Virus record (IMG/VR): IMGVR_UViG_2974716960_000001
Span: 1-64,000 of that record
Length of the DNA: 64,000 nucleotides
Source of the DNA: a virus
Lineage: Duplodnaviria; Caudoviricetes
Reading direction: 5' to 3' (one strand)
The position numbers and the translations under genes were made by a program. The notes under the pieces were generated by a model, which did not search any database, had not been told where the DNA came from, and saw only the letters and a list, made by a program, of their open reading frames with translations. This document shows positions 40,695-57,215 of this stretch, in pieces (position 1 is the stretch's first letter; every line of letters starts with the position of its first letter).

Positions 40695-42119
40695 ATGACC
40701 ACCTTTTTGCAGAGCCTAAACGGCCAGCTAAACACGACCCGCACGGAGAACGGCGATAAGGCGCATAAGTCGTCGCTTGATCCGGTGGTCGATTACTTCG
40801 GCTTGGCGGGCGCTATGCGTGACCGCGCCGAGGCGAGCGCCGACCTGTTTGAGAAGGCGTACCGTGCTGACCCGCAGGCTGCGGTGCGGACCCTGTTCTA
40901 TCTGCGTGATGTGCGCGGGGGCCAGGGGGAGCGCGACGTATTCCGTGCCGGGCTTAAGCGCCTGTTCCATATGGACCCTTACACCGGTATGGCAGTTGTG
41001 GAGCACACGCCGTTCTATGGGCGCTGGGATGACTTGTTCATCTTCGGGTCTCAGGTTCCGGCGGGTATCTCGGCACTTATCCGTGAGCAGTGGGCCGAGG
41101 ACGTTGACGCTTACGAGCGCGGCGAGAAGGTCTCACTGTTGGCTAAGTGGCTGCCTTCCGATAAGGCTGCGAATAAGGAGCTGGCTATCGCTGTCCGGAC
41201 GGTGCTGGGCCTGACGCAGCGCGAGTACCGGCAGACGCTTAGCGCGCTGCGGGAGCGGATTGGCCTGCTTGAGCACGCTATGTCGGACGGCGTTTACGCC
41301 AACGTCGACTACAGCAAGCTCCCGGCGCAGGCGCACCGTAAGCACGTTAAGGCGTTCCGGCGCAACGACGGTGAGCGGTACCAGGCGTTCCTAGACGCGG
41401 TTGACCGTGGCGAGGCCAAGGTGAACACGTCGACCCTGTATCCGTACGAGCTGTACGACTTGTGCCGGTCGGACCCGAACGCCGCTGACACGCTGTGGAA
41501 CAACCTGCCGGACTACACGCGGCCCGGCCAGGACGCGATCGTTCTAGCGGACGTTTCAGGCTCCATGTGGGGTCGGCCTATGTCTGTGTCTGTGTCGCTG
41601 GCTTTGTACTTCGCAGAGCGCAACACAGGGCCGTATAAGGGCTACTTCATGACGTTCGCCTCTACGCCTGCGCTGGTGCAGGTGACCGGTAAGACGTTGC
41701 AGCAGAAGCTCCACGCTATCGAGCACTCGACTGGCTGGTGTGGGTCGACGGACTTGGAGGCCGCGTTCAAGGCGATCTTGCGCGCCGGTAAGCAGTCGGG
41801 CACCGTCCCGGCCACGCTCTACGTCGTGTCGGACATGCAGTTCAATCAGGCGCTTAACCACGCTGACCTGAGCGTGTTTGAGTCGGCCCGGCTGGACTTC
41901 CAGCGGGCGGGCCTTGAGCTGCCGCATGTCGTGTTCTGGAACGTCAACGCGCGCCACGATCAGCTTCCGGCCACGATCCTTGACGGGAACGTGACGCTGG
42001 TGTCTGGCTTGGCGGCTACGACTTTCGGCATGGCCGTGGAGGGTAAGACCCCTCGTGAGCTGGTGAATGACGTGATCAATAGCGAGCGGTACTCGCAGAT
42101 CAACGTTTCCGGTTCCTAA
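40695..42119 (+). CDS. Ro60-like RNA-binding protein (DUF2828 / helical ring + vWA)
   Basis: TENGD, LFYLRDVRGGQGER, YGRWDDL, AKWLPS in the helical region; MIDAS DVSGS...STD...SDMQF in the vWA domain. Confidence 0.88.
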   Translation: MTTFLQSLNGQLNTTRTENGDKAHKSSLDPVVDYFGLAGAMRDRAEASADLFEKAYRADPQAAVRTLFYLRDVRGGQGERDVFRAGLKRLFHMDPYTGMAVVEHTPFYGRWDDLFIFGSQVPAGISALIREQWAEDVDAYERGEKVSLLAKWLPSDKAANKELAIAVRTVLGLTQREYRQTLSALRERIGLLEHAMSDGVYANVDYSKLPAQAHRKHVKAFRRNDGERYQAFLDAVDRGEAKVNTSTLYPYELYDLCRSDPNAADTLWNNLPDYTRPGQDAIVLADVSGSMWGRPMSVSVSLALYFAERNTGPYKGYFMTFASTPALVQVTGKTLQQKLHAIEHSTGWCGSTDLEAAFKAILRAGKQSGTVPATLYVVSDMQFNQALNHADLSVFESARLDFQRAGLELPHVVFWNVNARHDQLPATILDGNVTLVSGLAATTFGMAVEGKTPRELVNDVINSERYSQINVSGS

Positions 42120-42160
42120 TGTTTCCGGATACCGGGTGCCGCCCGGTATCGTAAAACTTG

Positions 42161-42212
42161 TGGACGCTAACAGCAATTAAAACTGTTTGCGGATAACAAT
42201 AAAATGCGTCCA
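42161..42212 (+). ncRNA. Candidate Y-like RNA unit 1
   Basis: TGGACGC/GCGTCCA stem, ACAGCAAT (42170-42177), TGTT-TGCGGAT-AACA stem-loop. Confidence 0.65.
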
Positions 42213-42223
42213 GTTTAAACGTG

Positions 42224-42343
42224 TGGACCCCCACAGCAATTACTACATTCCATGATAAGGACGAGGTTCGGGTTCGAGTCCCGGCGGTGGCCCTGTGTCG
42301 CTGTAGCTTAATGGCAGAGCGCGTATGTAAACCAAGGGGTCCA
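42224..42343 (+). ncRNA. Candidate Y-like RNA unit 2 with circularly permuted tRNA domain (YrlA-like)
   Basis: TGGACCCC/GGGGTCCA stem, ACAGCAAT, T-arm TCGGG-TTCGAGT-CCCGG, loop-closed 7-bp acceptor, D-arm GCTT-AATGGCA-GAGC. Confidence 0.8.
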
Positions 42344-42355
42344 GTTAAGCGGCTG

Positions 42356-42410
42356 TGGTCACTAACAGCAATCAAAAAACTTTCACTGTTAATGAAATAT
42401 AATGTGACCA
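42356..42410 (+). ncRNA. Candidate Y-like RNA unit 3
   Basis: TGGTCAC/GTGACCA stem, ACAGCAAT (42365-42372), TTTCA-CTGTTAA-TGAAA stem-loop. Confidence 0.7.
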
Positions 42411-42425
42411 GTCTTGCCGCGCATT

Positions 42426-42460
42426 AACCCGCTACCCGGTCGACGGGGGCGGGTTTTTTG
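42426..42460 (+). terminator. Intrinsic terminator closing the Ro-like/ncRNA locus
   Basis: AACCCGC..CCCG/CGGG..GCGGGTT stem followed by TTTTG. Confidence 0.85.
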
Positions 42461-51834: not shown

Positions 51835-52761
51835 ATGACGACCTTATGGGCGATGCGGGGTTATCCCGGCTCTGGTAAATCCACCAGGGCGCGTGAAATC
51901 GCTGACCAGAACGGCGCGGTGGTTGTGTGCCGCGACGATCTGCGCAACATGCTTCATGGCACCTATTTCTCGGGCGTCAAAGAGCGTGAGGATGAGGTCA
52001 CGGTTGCGGAGCGGGCGCAGGTTAGCGCGTTCCTTAAGGCCGGTATCTCTGTGGTGGTAGACGCTACTCACTTGGAGCCGTCTTATCTGCGTAAGTGGGC
52101 GAAGATGGCGAGCATGTACGGCGCTGACTTTAAGCGCGTTGACGTTGACACTGCGGCCCACCTTTGCATCGTGCGTGACTTTAAGCGCGGCGAGGCCGGA
52201 GACCGGACTGTCGGCGCGGAAGTGATTAACCGGATGGCTAAGCGTCACCCGATTAAGAACTGGCCGAACATTCAGGCTCCCCCGACGTTCGACCCTAAGC
52301 CGGTCGAATGGATTGAGGGTCTGCCGGAAGCCATCATCGTTGATATCGACGGCACGGTGGCTCACATGACGGGCCGGTCACCGTACGACTACACGCAGGT
52401 TCACACCGACGTGGTTGACGAGCAGATTCGGTGGCTGGTCGGCCTGGTGGACTACTACGGCGGTCCGAACGGTGTCCACGTGCTGATCGTGTCGGGCCGG
52501 GACGACTCGTGCCGGGTGGCGACTCAGGAATGGTTGTGGAAGAACGCCATTCCTTACGACGAGCTGCACATGCGGCCTACTGGCGCTAAGGATGAGCACG
52601 GTAACAAGCTGCCGGATTACCTGGTCAAGTACGACCTGTTCGACCAGAACATTCGCGGCAAGTACAACGTGCGCTTTGTGTTGGACGACCGGGACCAGGT
52701 TGTGAATCTGTGGCGGTCGCTGGGCCTTAAGTGCCTGCAAGTGCAGCCGGGGGACTTCTAA
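51835..52761 (+). CDS. pnk: Polynucleotide kinase/3'-phosphatase
   Basis: Walker A GYPGSGKST; HAD DIDGT; FVLDDR (T4 PseT-like). Confidence 0.93.
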   Translation: MTTLWAMRGYPGSGKSTRAREIADQNGAVVVCRDDLRNMLHGTYFSGVKEREDEVTVAERAQVSAFLKAGISVVVDATHLEPSYLRKWAKMASMYGADFKRVDVDTAAHLCIVRDFKRGEAGDRTVGAEVINRMAKRHPIKNWPNIQAPPTFDPKPVEWIEGLPEAIIVDIDGTVAHMTGRSPYDYTQVHTDVVDEQIRWLVGLVDYYGGPNGVHVLIVSGRDDSCRVATQEWLWKNAIPYDELHMRPTGAKDEHGNKLPDYLVKYDLFDQNIRGKYNVRFVLDDRDQVVNLWRSLGLKCLQVQPGDF

Positions 52762-55934: not shown

Positions 55935-57215
55935 GTGAGCTTTGACGCGCCGGAGAACGCTAACTACGCGGCGACAATCGTCAAGCTGCCGCAGGGGCTT
56001 CTCCTAGAAGGTCTGGACAACCTGGTGGGCGTGCCAATGTTCGGTTACCAGGCGCTCACCCAGAAAGAGGGCTACGAGCTGGGCGCGCTGCGTGTGCTGT
56101 TCATGGCTGAGACGCAGCTTGACCCCGACTACGCGCGGGAAAACAACCTGTTCCGTGAGGCCACGCTGAACCGGGACGCCAGCGAGACCGGCTACCTAGA
56201 GCCGAATGCCCGCGTGAAGGCGCTCCGGCTGCGTAAGCACCAGTCAGACGCGCTGTTGATGCCGCTGTCGTCGCTGGCCTACACCGGCTACGACGTGTCG
56301 GCGCTCAAGCCGGGCGATACGTTCGACAAGCTGAACGGCCACACGATCTGCCGTAAGTACGTGGCGAAGGGTAAGAAGCAGGCCACGCAGGGTCAGCCCA
56401 AGGTTCGTAAGCAGGTTGACGAGCGGCTGTTCCCGAAGCACTTGGACACGGAGCATCTGTTCCGGAACCTGCACTACTTCCGTGACGCTAAGCCTGTCGT
56501 GGTGACGCAGAAGTTGCACGGCACGAGCTGGCGCGGCGGCAATATCCCGGTTAACCGGACTAAGGGTCGGTTTGAGCGGTTCCTGAACCGTCTGGGCATT
56601 GCCACTCCGGACACTGAGTACAAGCATGTGTTCGGCTCTCGGAATGTGGTTAAGGGCCGGTCGGATAATAACCACTTCTACGAGTCTGATTTGTGGGCGA
56701 AGTTCGGCGAGAAGCTTGAGGGCAAGATTCCGGAGAACTTCATCATTTACGGCGAGCTTGTCGGGTGGGTTAGCGAGGATGAGCCGATCCAGCGGGGTTA
56801 CACGTACGACCTGCCGCCGGGGCAGTGCGAGCTTTACGTGTACCGGGTGGCGACGGTGAACCCTAAGGGTGTTATCGCGGACCTGTCATGGGAAGGCGTT
56901 AAGGACTTCTGCCGGACGTTGGAACTCAAGACGGTGCCGGAGTTCGGTTTCGACGTTGAGCATGTGCCGAACTTTGAGGCCGAGGAGCGATTCGTCCTGG
57001 CTTACCAGGAGACGTACATGGACTTGCGTTACGCGGACGCTTACCCCAATGGCGGGTATCTGCCGCTGAGTGACCGCAAGACGGTTGACGAGGGTATCTG
57101 CGTCCGTATCGAGGGCCAGGTGCCGCGCGTGCTCAAAGCCAAGTCGCCGAAGTTCCTTGAGCATGAGACTAAGCAGTTGGATAAGGGAGAGGTTGACCTT
57201 GAGTCGGTGGCGTAA
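55935..57215 (+). CDS. RNA ligase (Rnl2-like with N-terminal OB-like domain)
   Basis: Motif I KLHGTS; IIYGEL; EGICVR; LKAKS. Confidence 0.9.
   Translation: MSFDAPENANYAATIVKLPQGLLLEGLDNLVGVPMFGYQALTQKEGYELGALRVLFMAETQLDPDYARENNLFREATLNRDASETGYLEPNARVKALRLRKHQSDALLMPLSSLAYTGYDVSALKPGDTFDKLNGHTICRKYVAKGKKQATQGQPKVRKQVDERLFPKHLDTEHLFRNLHYFRDAKPVVVTQKLHGTSWRGGNIPVNRTKGRFERFLNRLGIATPDTEYKHVFGSRNVVKGRSDNNHFYESDLWAKFGEKLEGKIPENFIIYGELVGWVSEDEPIQRGYTYDLPPGQCELYVYRVATVNPKGVIADLSWEGVKDFCRTLELKTVPEFGFDVEHVPNFEAEERFVLAYQETYMDLRYADAYPNGGYLPLSDRKTVDEGICVRIEGQVPRVLKAKSPKFLEHETKQLDKGEVDLESVA

What the first reader, a model, noticed from the sequence alone, without database searches (positions are those of the whole stretch)
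42224..42343. Unit 2 is a circularly permuted tRNA mimic with exact tRNA geometry
Seen, 5' to 3': anticodon-like loop TCC-ATGATAA-GGA (42249-42261); variable region; T-arm TCGGG-TTCGAGT-CCCGG (42268-42284); acceptor 3' strand CGGTGGC (42285-42291); 5-nt closing loop; acceptor 5' strand GTCGCTG (42297-42303); T8-A9; D-arm GCTT-AATGGCA-GAGC (42306-42320) with the GG dinucleotide. Established: bacterial YrlA Y RNAs show this T-before-D permuted order with a loop-closed acceptor stem. The closed acceptor means it cannot be charged without cleavage, and standard tRNA finders would likely miss it. Inference: an elbow mimic that recruits tRNA-modifying enzymes or decoys tRNA-targeting nucleases.
Basis: partly seen in the sequence, partly recalled or inferred. 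Interest (0 to 1): 0.85.

Follow-up and report, generated by a model that had tools for sequence, protein, structure and literature searches.

The report
Phage tRNA-shaped Y-like RNA
A mycobacteriophage encodes, right after the gene for a Ro60-shaped protein, a small RNA built like a tRNA written in rotated order with its amino-acid end sealed. It belongs to a widespread phage RNA class that resembles the known bacterial YrlA Y RNAs but has a different protein-binding handle and, as far as I could find, has not been described.

Summary
Window 42223-42344 is one RNA unit. An 8-bp closing stem plus an ACAGCAA box (the "handle") encloses a circularly permuted tRNA body: 7-nt-loop hairpin, variable-loop-like linker, T arm, sealed 7-bp acceptor hairpin, U8-A9, D arm.

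Across 19 homologous cores from phages of Actinobacteria, Bacillota and Gammaproteobacteria, 96% of pair cells are paired and 15 of 17 pairs show double changes. The tertiary Levitt 15:48 pair also covaries. A covariance model built without any mycobacteriophage finds the window core at 49 bits. ARAGORN of 19 cores a tRNA once they are rotated back, and none of 380 shuffled controls.

Unit 2 is the middle of three handle RNAs. They lie between a DUF2828/DUF7788 gene, whose predicted fold matches Ro60, and a terminator.

It works like YrlA but is not a member. It scores 21.7 bits against a gathering score of 69, it lacks the GNCGAA motif, and its partner gives no TROVE hit in Pfam. I found no Rfam family or held paper that describes this class.

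This scan has already noted the same class on other DNA (36 notes, at least 33 genomes). Function is inferred: a Y-RNA-like partner of the Ro-like ring that displays a tRNA body. Interest is moderate to high.

The parts
40695..42119 (+). Ro-like protein gene (474 aa), the presumed protein partner
   Evidence: Pfam DUF2828 (3.6e-28) and DUF7788 (9.7e-30), weak VWA_2, no TROVE hit. AlphaFold2 model has pLDDT 85.7 and pTM 0.86. The top 13 Foldseek PDB hits are all Ro60 chains: 1yvr TMq 0.62, phage phiLo 9kop, Rsr 2nvo. Relatives are annotated 'Ro-like RNA binding protein'.
42128..42149 (+). GC-rich hairpin just after the stop codon, with no U tract
   Evidence: Predicted in the 351-nt fold. Also present in relatives. 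Role unknown.
42160..42213 (+). Unit 1: simple handle RNA (closing stem, ACAGCAA, hairpin with 7-nt loop)
42223..42344 (+). Unit 2: the whole RNA of the finding (handle plus permuted tRNA body)
42224..42231 (+). Closing stem P1, 5' strand. It pairs with 42336-42343 (8 bp).
   Evidence: Compensatory changes between units and between phages.
42233..42239 (+). ACAGCAA box, the presumed binding site of the Ro-like protein
   Evidence: The stem-plus-box pattern occurs 3 times in the window against 0.02 expected. These are the only 3 copies in the 77-kb genome. The box recurs next to DUF2828 genes down to about 36-43% protein identity and in phages of other phyla.
42240..42246 (+). P2 5' strand, weak helix with 42323-42330. 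It occupies the anticodon-stem position in YrlA naming.
   Evidence: MFE folds. It is only loosely conserved between homologues, so it is tentative.
42249..42261 (+). Hairpin with a 7-nt loop shaped like an anticodon loop (GAU in the middle). This is the V arm in YrlA naming.
   Evidence: 7-nt loops are the commonest loop size in this RNA class (36 of 104 predicted hairpin loops).
42262..42267 (+). Variable-loop-like linker ending in U48
   Evidence: An RGG(U)Y linker precedes the T stem in about 15 of 21 homologues. U48 covaries with A15.
42268..42284 (+). T arm
   Evidence: 100% of cells paired; 4 of 5 pairs have double changes.
42285..42303 (+). Sealed acceptor hairpin (7 bp, 5-nt loop)
   Evidence: All 7 pairs covary; 91.7% of cells paired. 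About 12 different stem sequences are seen.
42304..42320 (+). U8-A9 and D arm
   Evidence: 98.7% of cells paired; 3 of 4 pairs have double changes; GG is invariant.
42336..42343 (+). Closing stem P1, 3' strand
42355..42411 (+). Unit 3: simple handle RNA
   Evidence: Weak match to the Rfam Dictyostelium Class I RNA model (21.9 bits, gathering score 41.5).
42428..42459 (+). Intrinsic terminator (GC hairpin plus six U) that closes the block
   Evidence: Fold; sequence. The consensus scanner did not list it because the stem is interrupted.

Best explanation
Unit 2 is a structured non-coding RNA of the Y-RNA kind, and it has two modules.

The first module is a handle: an 8-bp closing stem with an unpaired ACAGCAA box directly after its 5' strand. 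The two neighbouring RNAs, and RNAs beside DUF2828 genes in many other phages, carry the same handle. I infer that the Ro60-shaped DUF2828/vWA protein encoded just upstream binds it.

The second module is a complete tRNA body in rotated order: anticodon-like or V hairpin, variable loop, T arm, acceptor stem sealed by a loop, U8-A9, D arm. It folds into the tRNA L-shape.

The gene, three RNAs and a terminator look like one transcript that is cut into separate RNAs. By analogy with Ro60 and YrlA, the ring holds the handle. The tRNA body is displayed to proteins that recognise tRNA shape: TruB, Dus, RNase P, the CCA-adding enzyme, and possibly a nuclease or a repair enzyme. This would either tether such a factor to the ring or protect the RNA.

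Because the acceptor stem has 7 bp, RNase P cleavage in the sealing loop is plausible, as happens to the host's own YrlA.

What is shown: the RNA architecture, its conservation and covariation, the link between the handle and DUF2828 genes, and the Ro60 fold of the protein (a prediction). What is inferred: binding, processing, and the biological role. The role is probably RNA quality control or repair during infection, since the phage also encodes Pnkp and an RNA ligase.
For: - Coordinates and arms are as read.
- Covariation on 19 cores from phages of three bacterial phyla: 96.0% of cells paired, 15 of 17 pairs with double changes, score 0.805 against 0.251 shuffled (0 of 500) and at most 0.231 slid. 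The Levitt 15:48 pair is CG 9, UA 8, AU 1, other 1.
- The leave-out model R1, built without any mycobacteriophage, finds 42266-42321 at 49.0 bits, E about 1e-14.
- ARAGORN on re-permuted cores: 18 of 19 called tRNA, 0 of 380 shuffled controls.
- With only the T arm constrained, the MFE gives closing stem, hairpin, T arm, acceptor hairpin and D arm in most homologues.
- Handle: 3 matches in the window against 0.02 expected, and no other copy in the genome.
- The handle lies beside DUF2828 genes in about 30 IMG/VR loci and in Listeria, Bacillus, Aeromonas, Salmonella, Sinorhizobium, Staphylococcus, Enterococcus, Campylobacter and Pseudoalteromonas phages.
- In 591 kb scanned, 21 of 25 permuted cores have a CAGCAA handle within 90 nt upstream. 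A 22nd has a CAGCUA variant.
- The predicted protein fold matches Ro60.
- The YrlA model aligns end to end at sub-threshold scores here and in 4 other phage units.
- Pnkp and RNA ligase are encoded in the same window.
- In a related Listeria phage, very abundant unannotated RNAs map within 2 kb upstream of the homologous gene, and their authors suggested they may be Y RNAs (PMC12282133).
Against: - I could obtain no expression, end-mapping or binding data for this phage.
- The window sequence alone does not fold better than shuffles (z = 0.20). Its unconstrained MFE mispairs the T arm.
- The window's acceptor stem has three G-U pairs, and the anticodon-like hairpin has only 3 bp.
- Helix P2 is poorly conserved.
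- T and D arms are tRNA-derived, so part of the covariation could come from repeated capture of different tRNAs rather than from selection on a single lineage.
- Handle-to-protein binding rests on gene neighbourhood only.
- In the Listeria phage the same interval also holds a ROOL-like RNA. The abundant RNAs reported there need not be the handle RNAs.
Confidence: 0.8

Rival explanations
1. It is simply a member of the already described YrlA family of Ro60 (TROVE) partners, which was reported in mycobacteriophages in 2014. Nothing would then be new.
For: It has the same T arm, sealed acceptor and D arm order, next to and on the same strand as a Ro-like gene. The Rfam YrlA model aligns over positions 1-114. 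Chen et al. found YrlA in 22 phages (PMC4201824).
Against: It scores 21.7 bits against a gathering score of 69. Related units in other phages score 34-48 bits, all below threshold. The defining GNCGAA motif is absent and ACAGCAA stands in its place. The partner gives DUF2828/DUF7788 in Pfam, not TROVE. Chen et al. selected genomes by TROVE annotation. The phages named as carrying such RNAs are ET08 (PMC4201824) and CcrColossus and Bacillus phage G (PMC12135203). I could not read their supplementary phage list.
Confidence: 0.1
2. Its main role is as a decoy or sponge for host tRNA-targeting nucleases (anticodon nucleases, tRNA-cleaving toxins), independent of the Ro-like protein.
For: It has the tRNA shape. 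The 7-nt loops look like anticodon loops (Y-U-NNN-A-A) in many units of the class. The phage carries the Pnkp plus RNA ligase tRNA-repair pair. DUF2828 genes often sit inside phage tRNA clusters.
Against: The handle and its strict neighbourhood with the protein gene are not explained. The anticodon-like stem in the window is only 3 bp, and it is off the canonical position if P2 forms. This role is not exclusive of the main explanation.
Confidence: 0.12
3. It is a decayed pseudo-tRNA or the junction of two former tandem tRNA genes, with no function of its own.
For: Phage tRNA clusters decay. A T arm followed by the next tRNA's D arm gives the same order, and my scan found two such junction false positives. 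Some GenBank records annotate part of the unit as tRNA-Thr or tRNA-Asn.
Against: The two acceptor strands pair with each other in all 19 cores, and all 7 pairs covary. The unit is conserved with its handle from actinophages to Felixounavirus. It lies 20 kb from this phage's tRNA cluster.
Confidence: 0.03
4. It is a permuted tRNA gene that is processed, as in Cyanidioschyzon, into a working tRNA-Ile(GAU).
For: All four arms are present in rotated order. The loop would read GAU. The acceptor stem has 7 bp.
Against: Bacteria lack the splicing endonuclease and circularisation pathway. The anticodon stem has only 3 bp. The ends are clamped by a conserved handle that ordinary tRNAs never carry. In homologues the hairpin loop varies or is missing.
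Confidence: 0.02

Closest known systems
YrlA, the tRNA-like Y RNA bound by bacterial Ro60/Rsr (Rfam RF02553; Chen et al. 2014, PMC4201824)
   Same: It is encoded beside, and on the same strand as, a Ro60-shaped protein. It has the same order of T arm, loop-closed acceptor stem and D arm. The Levitt 15:48 pair switches between G:C and A:U. Further, simpler Y RNAs lie alongside. M. smegmatis YrlA also has a 7-bp acceptor stem.
   Different: The protein-binding module is a closed 8-bp stem plus ACAGCAA, not GNCGAA. The partner is DUF2828/DUF7788, not a Pfam TROVE protein. It scores far below the Rfam gathering score. The RNAs lie 3' of the gene in tandem, ahead of one terminator.
Thermus phage phiLo Ro60 with Yrl1 and Yrl2 (PMC12135203; PDB 9KOP, 9L5Y)
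   Same: It is a phage-encoded Ro60-fold ring with phage-encoded partner RNAs next to the gene. 9KOP is the second-best structural match of the window protein.
   Different: The phiLo RNAs carry the CGAA motif in a stem-bulge-stem. The text passages I searched report no tRNA-like domain. Sequence identity is only 16-17% in the structural alignment.
D. radiodurans Yrn1 in the Rsr-Y RNA-PNPase (RYPER) machine (described in PMC4201824)
   Same: It is a two-module RNA: a Ro-binding stem plus a tRNA-like end that contacts another enzyme. It is the functional model for 'ring plus tether'.
   Different: Yrn1 has the opposite arm orientation and no full D arm. No PNPase link has been tested here.
Dictyostelid Class I RNAs (Rfam RF01414; PMC7919456)
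   Same: [quoted passage not shown] All five universally conserved motif positions agree. The middle is variable. The 3' end is CUGU, against CAGU or CUGU in phages. Unit 3 gives 21.9 bits.
   Different: That score is below the gathering score of 41.5, and there were no hits at E <= 0.01 in 12 other phage loci. These are eukaryotic Pol III-type genes, and no tRNA-like body is known in them. A protein link has not been tested.
Ordinary tRNA (RF00005)
   Same: D arm, T arm, 7-bp acceptor, U8, A14, G18 G19, T-loop, Levitt pair and variable-loop motif are all present. It is recognised as a tRNA after rotation.
   Different: The order is rotated. The acceptor end is sealed, so there is no CCA end. 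The ends are extended into the handle. There is no hit with the tRNA model even at E <= 10.

Membership tests
YrlA (Rfam RF02553) | Score at or above the family's gathering score (69 bits) | tested here: not met
   21.7 bits, E 0.032 in a 451-nt search. No hit at the gathering threshold on the whole window.
YrlA (Rfam RF02553) | GNCGAAN0-1G motif near the 5' end (the presumed Ro60 contact) | tested here: not met
   The 5' part of unit 2 is closing stem, ACAGCAA, then UUACUAC, with no GNCGAA. All three units carry ACAGCAA instead.
YrlA (Rfam RF02553) | T arm, then a stem-loop in the acceptor position, then D arm, all inside one RNA | tested here: met
YrlA (Rfam RF02553) | Potential for tRNA tertiary pairs, with the Levitt 15:48 pair switching between G:C and A:U | tested here: met
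   Columns 2 and 55 of A3: CG 9, UA 8, AU 1, other 1. U8, A14, G18 G19 and the T-loop are conserved.
YrlA (Rfam RF02553) | Encoded within about 4 kb of, and on the same strand as, a Ro60 (TROVE) orthologue | tested here: inconclusive
   It starts 104 nt after the stop codon, on the same strand. The protein has a predicted Ro60 fold, but Pfam gives DUF2828/DUF7788 and no TROVE.
YrlA (Rfam RF02553) | Pseudouridine 55 and dihydrouridine made by TruB and Dus; bound by Rsr in vivo | not testable with these tools
   Needs CMC primer extension and immunoprecipitation.
ACAGCAA-handle RNAs beside DUF2828 genes (a class I found in no Rfam family or held paper; seen repeatedly by this scan) | Closing stem of 6-8 bp whose sequence differs between copies but always pairs | tested here: met
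   The three units of the window have different stems, all paired. Position 8/139 of A1 is CG 7 and UA 7.
ACAGCAA-handle RNAs beside DUF2828 genes (a class I found in no Rfam family or held paper; seen repeatedly by this scan) | (A)CAGCAA box 0-3 nt after the 5' strand, and a G after the 3' strand | tested here: met
ACAGCAA-handle RNAs beside DUF2828 genes (a class I found in no Rfam family or held paper; seen repeatedly by this scan) | Lies near a DUF2828/DUF7788 gene | tested here: met
tRNA (RF00005) | Cloverleaf in standard order with a free acceptor end | tested here: not met
   No ARAGORN call. No RF00005 hit at E <= 10. It is recognised only after rotation.
Dictyostelid Class I RNA (RF01414), considered for the handle and unit 3 | Gathering score of 41.5 bits | tested here: not met
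   Unit 3 scores 21.9 bits, E 0.11. No hits at E <= 0.01 in 12 phage loci.

The most novel reading that the evidence does not exclude
The stem-plus-ACAGCAA handle and the DUF2828 ring form a second, ancient Ro/Y-type ribonucleoprotein lineage that reaches beyond phages. On this reading the dictyostelid Class I RNAs, which have the same stem, the same box and the same 3' end and are so far thought unique to social amoebae, are its eukaryotic members. They would be bound by a DUF2828 homologue. A candidate is the uncharacterised protein DDB_G0281243, which was pulled down with Class I RNA DdR-21.
Probability: 0.15. Interest if true: 0.85.

Novelty: new variant of a known kind. Interest (0 to 1): 0.6.

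Why it matters
Ro60 and its Y RNAs are conserved from bacteria to humans, and Ro60 is a lupus and Sjogren autoantigen. Even so, what the tRNA-like module of bacterial Y RNAs does is still open.

This RNA shows that a second family of Ro60-shaped proteins has its own partner RNAs. DUF2828 proteins match 708 phage records. Their RNAs use a different handle but the same rotated tRNA body. The tRNA display is therefore the conserved functional part, whether it was kept from a common ancestor or reinvented.

The cluster L phage and M. smegmatis pair is genetically tractable, with phage recombineering and inducible expression. The LeBron homologue of the protein is already known to be toxic when overproduced (PMC13148394). 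The host's own YrlA is processed by RNase P. Binding, processing and phenotype can therefore all be tested directly.

There are practical consequences too. These RNAs are currently unannotated, or are mis-annotated as tRNA-Thr or tRNA-Asn in some GenBank records.

Tried and rejected
- Single-sequence thermodynamics: not informative (z = 0.20).
- Supplementary tables of Chen et al. 2014, to see which 22 phages were listed: not held.
- The Sim et al. 2020 review and Avesson et al. 2011: not held.
- Literature searches for DUF2828, PF11443, DUF7788 and the Class I motif: nothing on RNA partners.
- MAFFT on whole units misaligned the acceptor hairpin. I re-aligned the cores only.
- Units from L001 and L007 have two bulges in the acceptor stem and failed my strict parser. 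I kept them in alignment A3 all the same, and they account for most of the unpaired cells there.
- Search for a Dictyostelium DUF2828 homologue: two homologous-protein runs listed only a RecQ-fused form and marine giant-virus relatives. The ESM Atlas gave only viral and bacterial clusters. The question is unresolved.
- The consensus terminator scan missed the terminator. It is visible in the fold.
- Rejected readings: attP-like tRNA fragment, cis-regulatory 3' UTR element, and a coding ORF. ORFs 42221-42427 (+) and 42100-42375 (-) overlap the region. I rejected them because conservation follows RNA pairs, and homologous units lie upstream of, or far from, the gene in other phages.

Full report
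**1. What is in the sequence**

The window is most of a 77,086-bp mycobacteriophage genome. It is related to the cluster L phages Faith1, Rumpelstiltskin and Loadrie, with 81-85% DNA identity over the region.

An 8-bp closing stem (42224-42231 with 42336-42343) encloses everything, and the box ACAGCAA (42233-42239) follows its 5' strand after one base.

The same design of stem plus box occurs three times in tandem: 42160-42213, 42223-42344 and 42355-42411. This block lies between the stop codon of ORF 40695-42119 and a GC hairpin with six U at 42428-42459. The composite pattern matches 3 times in the window against 0.02 expected and nowhere else in the genome.

**2. Is the tRNA-like fold real?**

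ARAGORN and the Rfam tRNA model find nothing here, even at E <= 10. Folding the window sequence alone is no better than shuffles. I therefore relied on comparison with homologues.

I used the upstream protein to fetch 35 IMG/VR loci and ten regions of named phages. Units with the same inner order (hairpin, T arm, sealed acceptor hairpin, U8-N9, D arm) occur in these places:
- the cluster L relatives
- a metagenomic phage whose protein is 55% identical (three units)
- Bacillus phage PBC2
- Felixounavirus Mushroom
- Enterococcus phage EFGrNG (two units)
- Pseudoalteromonas phage J2-1

On a 19-sequence alignment of the cores (A3), the structure has 96.0% of cells paired. 15 of 17 pairs carry changes on both sides. 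The covariation score is 0.805, against 0.251 in shuffles (0 of 500 reach it) and at most 0.231 when partners are slid.

All seven acceptor pairs covary. The tertiary Levitt pair 15:48 switches between C:G (9) and U:A (8). That is the same signature Chen et al. used for YrlA.

Three further controls agree:
- Each core was rotated back to tRNA order and given a generic anticodon arm. ARAGORN called 18 of 19 a tRNA and none of 380 shuffled controls.
- A covariance model built from eight cores that include no mycobacteriophage finds 42266-42321 at 49.0 bits (E about 1e-14). That is 24 bits above the next hit, which is the D-arm side of the real tRNA-Trp.
- A rule-based scan of 591 kb found 25 permuted cores. 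21 have a CAGCAA handle within 90 nt upstream, one more has a CAGCUA variant, and two are junctions of tandem tRNAs.

**3. Naming of the first hairpin**

In YrlA nomenclature this position is the V arm, and the helix leading to the protein-binding end takes the anticodon-stem position.

The secondary structure is the same under both names. The linker before the T stem reads RGG(U)Y in about 15 of 21 homologues, like positions 44-48 of a class I tRNA. Helix P2 (42240-42246 with 42323-42330) is weak and poorly conserved. Which arrangement holds in three dimensions needs probing or a solved structure.

Hairpins with 7-nt loops of the form Y-U-NNN-A-A are common in this RNA class, including in the simple units.

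**4. The partner**

ORF 40695-42119 matches Pfam DUF2828 and DUF7788, has a weak vWA match, and gives no TROVE hit. It has no sequence match in the PDB.

An AlphaFold2 model from a 16-sequence alignment has pLDDT 85.7 and pTM 0.86. Its best 13 Foldseek matches are all Ro60 chains aligned over their full length: Xenopus Ro60 1yvr with TM 0.62, Thermus phage phiLo 9kop, Deinococcus Rsr 2nvo, and human Ro60. Ordinary vWA domains follow only after these.

Homologues match 708 phage records. They often lie inside tRNA gene clusters on the same strand. In a Listeria phage the homologue lies near an RtcB-type ligase.

Handle RNAs lie next to the gene in nearly every locus I examined down to about 36-43% protein identity. 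They were not found beside the most distant, giant-virus-like homologues at 27-30% identity. Binding of handle to protein is inferred from this neighbourhood and was not tested.

**5. Comparison with what is known**

The nearest described thing is YrlA. The Rfam YrlA model aligns end to end, but at 21.7 bits against a gathering score of 69. The related units of other phages score 34-48 bits. The YrlA motif GNCGAA is absent.

Chen et al. chose genomes by TROVE annotation. The phages named as carrying such RNAs are ET08 and CcrColossus and Bacillus phage G. I could not read their phage table.

In the held library, DUF2828, PF11443 and DUF7788 appear in six papers, none about RNA. A 2025 study of a P100-like Listeria phage reported very abundant unannotated RNAs within 2 kb upstream of the homologous gene and suggested they may be Y RNAs. 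It also found the protein in virions (PMC12282133). I find three handle units in that interval of a related phage, but also a ROOL-like RNA. Which of these are the abundant species is open.

The LeBron homologue gp53 is moderately toxic when overproduced (PMC13148394).

I therefore file the RNA as working like YrlA but not as a member of that family. It is a new variant of a known kind. This scan has already noted the same class on other DNA: 36 notes in at least 33 genomes, several with follow-ups that reached the same reading. Those notes are not independent evidence, and my conclusions rest on the tests above.

**6. Mechanism**

Most likely (0.8 for the identity, lower for the details): the gene and the three RNAs are transcribed together and the RNAs are cut out. 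The ring protein holds the handle. The tRNA body is displayed to factors that recognise tRNA shape.

The 7-bp acceptor stem makes RNase P cleavage in the sealing loop plausible. This phage's host does exactly that to its own YrlA, followed by CCA addition. The window also encodes a Pnkp (51835-52761) and an RNA ligase (55935-57215), the classical tRNA-repair pair. This points to RNA damage and quality control during infection.

A decoy role against tRNA-cleaving nucleases is compatible with the data but does not explain the handle.

**7. A lead beyond the finding**

Unit 3 gives a weak match to the Rfam model of dictyostelid Class I RNAs. Those RNAs are defined by a short stem that joins the two ends, an 11-nt box ending in ACAGCAA next to the 5' strand, and a CUGU end. 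They were reported as unique to Dictyostelia (PMC7919456).

The phage handle agrees at all five universally conserved positions of that box. One of the four proteins pulled down with a Class I RNA, DDB_G0281243, has no known function. I could not obtain its sequence or find a dictyostelid DUF2828 protein with the tools. I rate this link at about 0.15.

Noticed in passing
window 42355-42411 (unit 3) and 42160-42213 (unit 1): The simple handle RNAs resemble dictyostelid Class I RNAs: stem joining the ends, a box ending in ACAGCAA, and a CAGU or CUGU end. Unit 3 scores 21.9 bits on RF01414 (gathering score 41.5). A Class I pull-down protein of unknown function, DDB_G0281243, could be checked for DUF2828.
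   Followed up: partly
window 42190-42199 and 42383-42397; many loci: The inner hairpins of the handle RNAs often have 7-nt loops shaped like anticodon loops (Y-U-NNN-A-A), with different triplets in different units. 36 of 104 predicted loops are 7 nt long.
   Followed up: partly
L037 423-493 (phage Zakai, GenBank KX580961); also Wilder and Gardann: GenBank records annotate part of the homologous unit 2 (handle, hairpin, T arm) as tRNA-Thr or tRNA-Asn. ARAGORN calls nothing there. These look like mis-annotations.
   Followed up: yes
window 51835-52761 and 55935-57215: A Pnkp (kinase plus HAD phosphatase) and an RNA ligase, the tRNA-repair pair, are encoded 10-14 kb downstream of the Ro-like locus.
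   Followed up: partly
window 42128-42149: A conserved GC-rich hairpin without a U tract lies directly after the stop codon of the Ro-like gene and before unit 1. It may be a processing or stabilising element.
   Followed up: no
window 42350-42354 with 42416-42420: Unit 3 is enclosed by a second outer helix (GCGGC with GCCGC), which is conserved in relatives.
   Followed up: no
L039 811-933 (Bacillus phage PBC2): A handle unit appears to enclose a tRNA-Ile body in standard order. ARAGORN. The Rfam tRNA model matches only positions 6-65, so the acceptor ends are missing. Cargo can therefore be in standard as well as rotated order.
   Followed up: partly
L024 3379-3558: A third permuted unit in one metagenomic phage carries a 70-nt insertion in the loop that seals the acceptor stem.
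   Followed up: no
L038 969-1520 (Listeria phage vB_Liva_VAfA18): A ROOL-like RNA (89.8 bits, gathering score 99.1) lies between the phage tRNAs and the three handle RNAs upstream of the DUF2828 gene. It may be one of the very abundant RNAs reported for phage CKA15.
   Followed up: no
protein P0001: A 1148-aa metagenomic protein joins DUF2828/DUF7788 to a RecQ-type helicase. It is seen on a single contig, so it may be a gene-call artefact.
   Followed up: no
L039, L041: In loci returned as reverse complements, the annotation table lists tRNA genes on the minus strand, while ARAGORN and the sequence place them on the plus strand, the same strand as the DUF2828 gene.
   Followed up: yes
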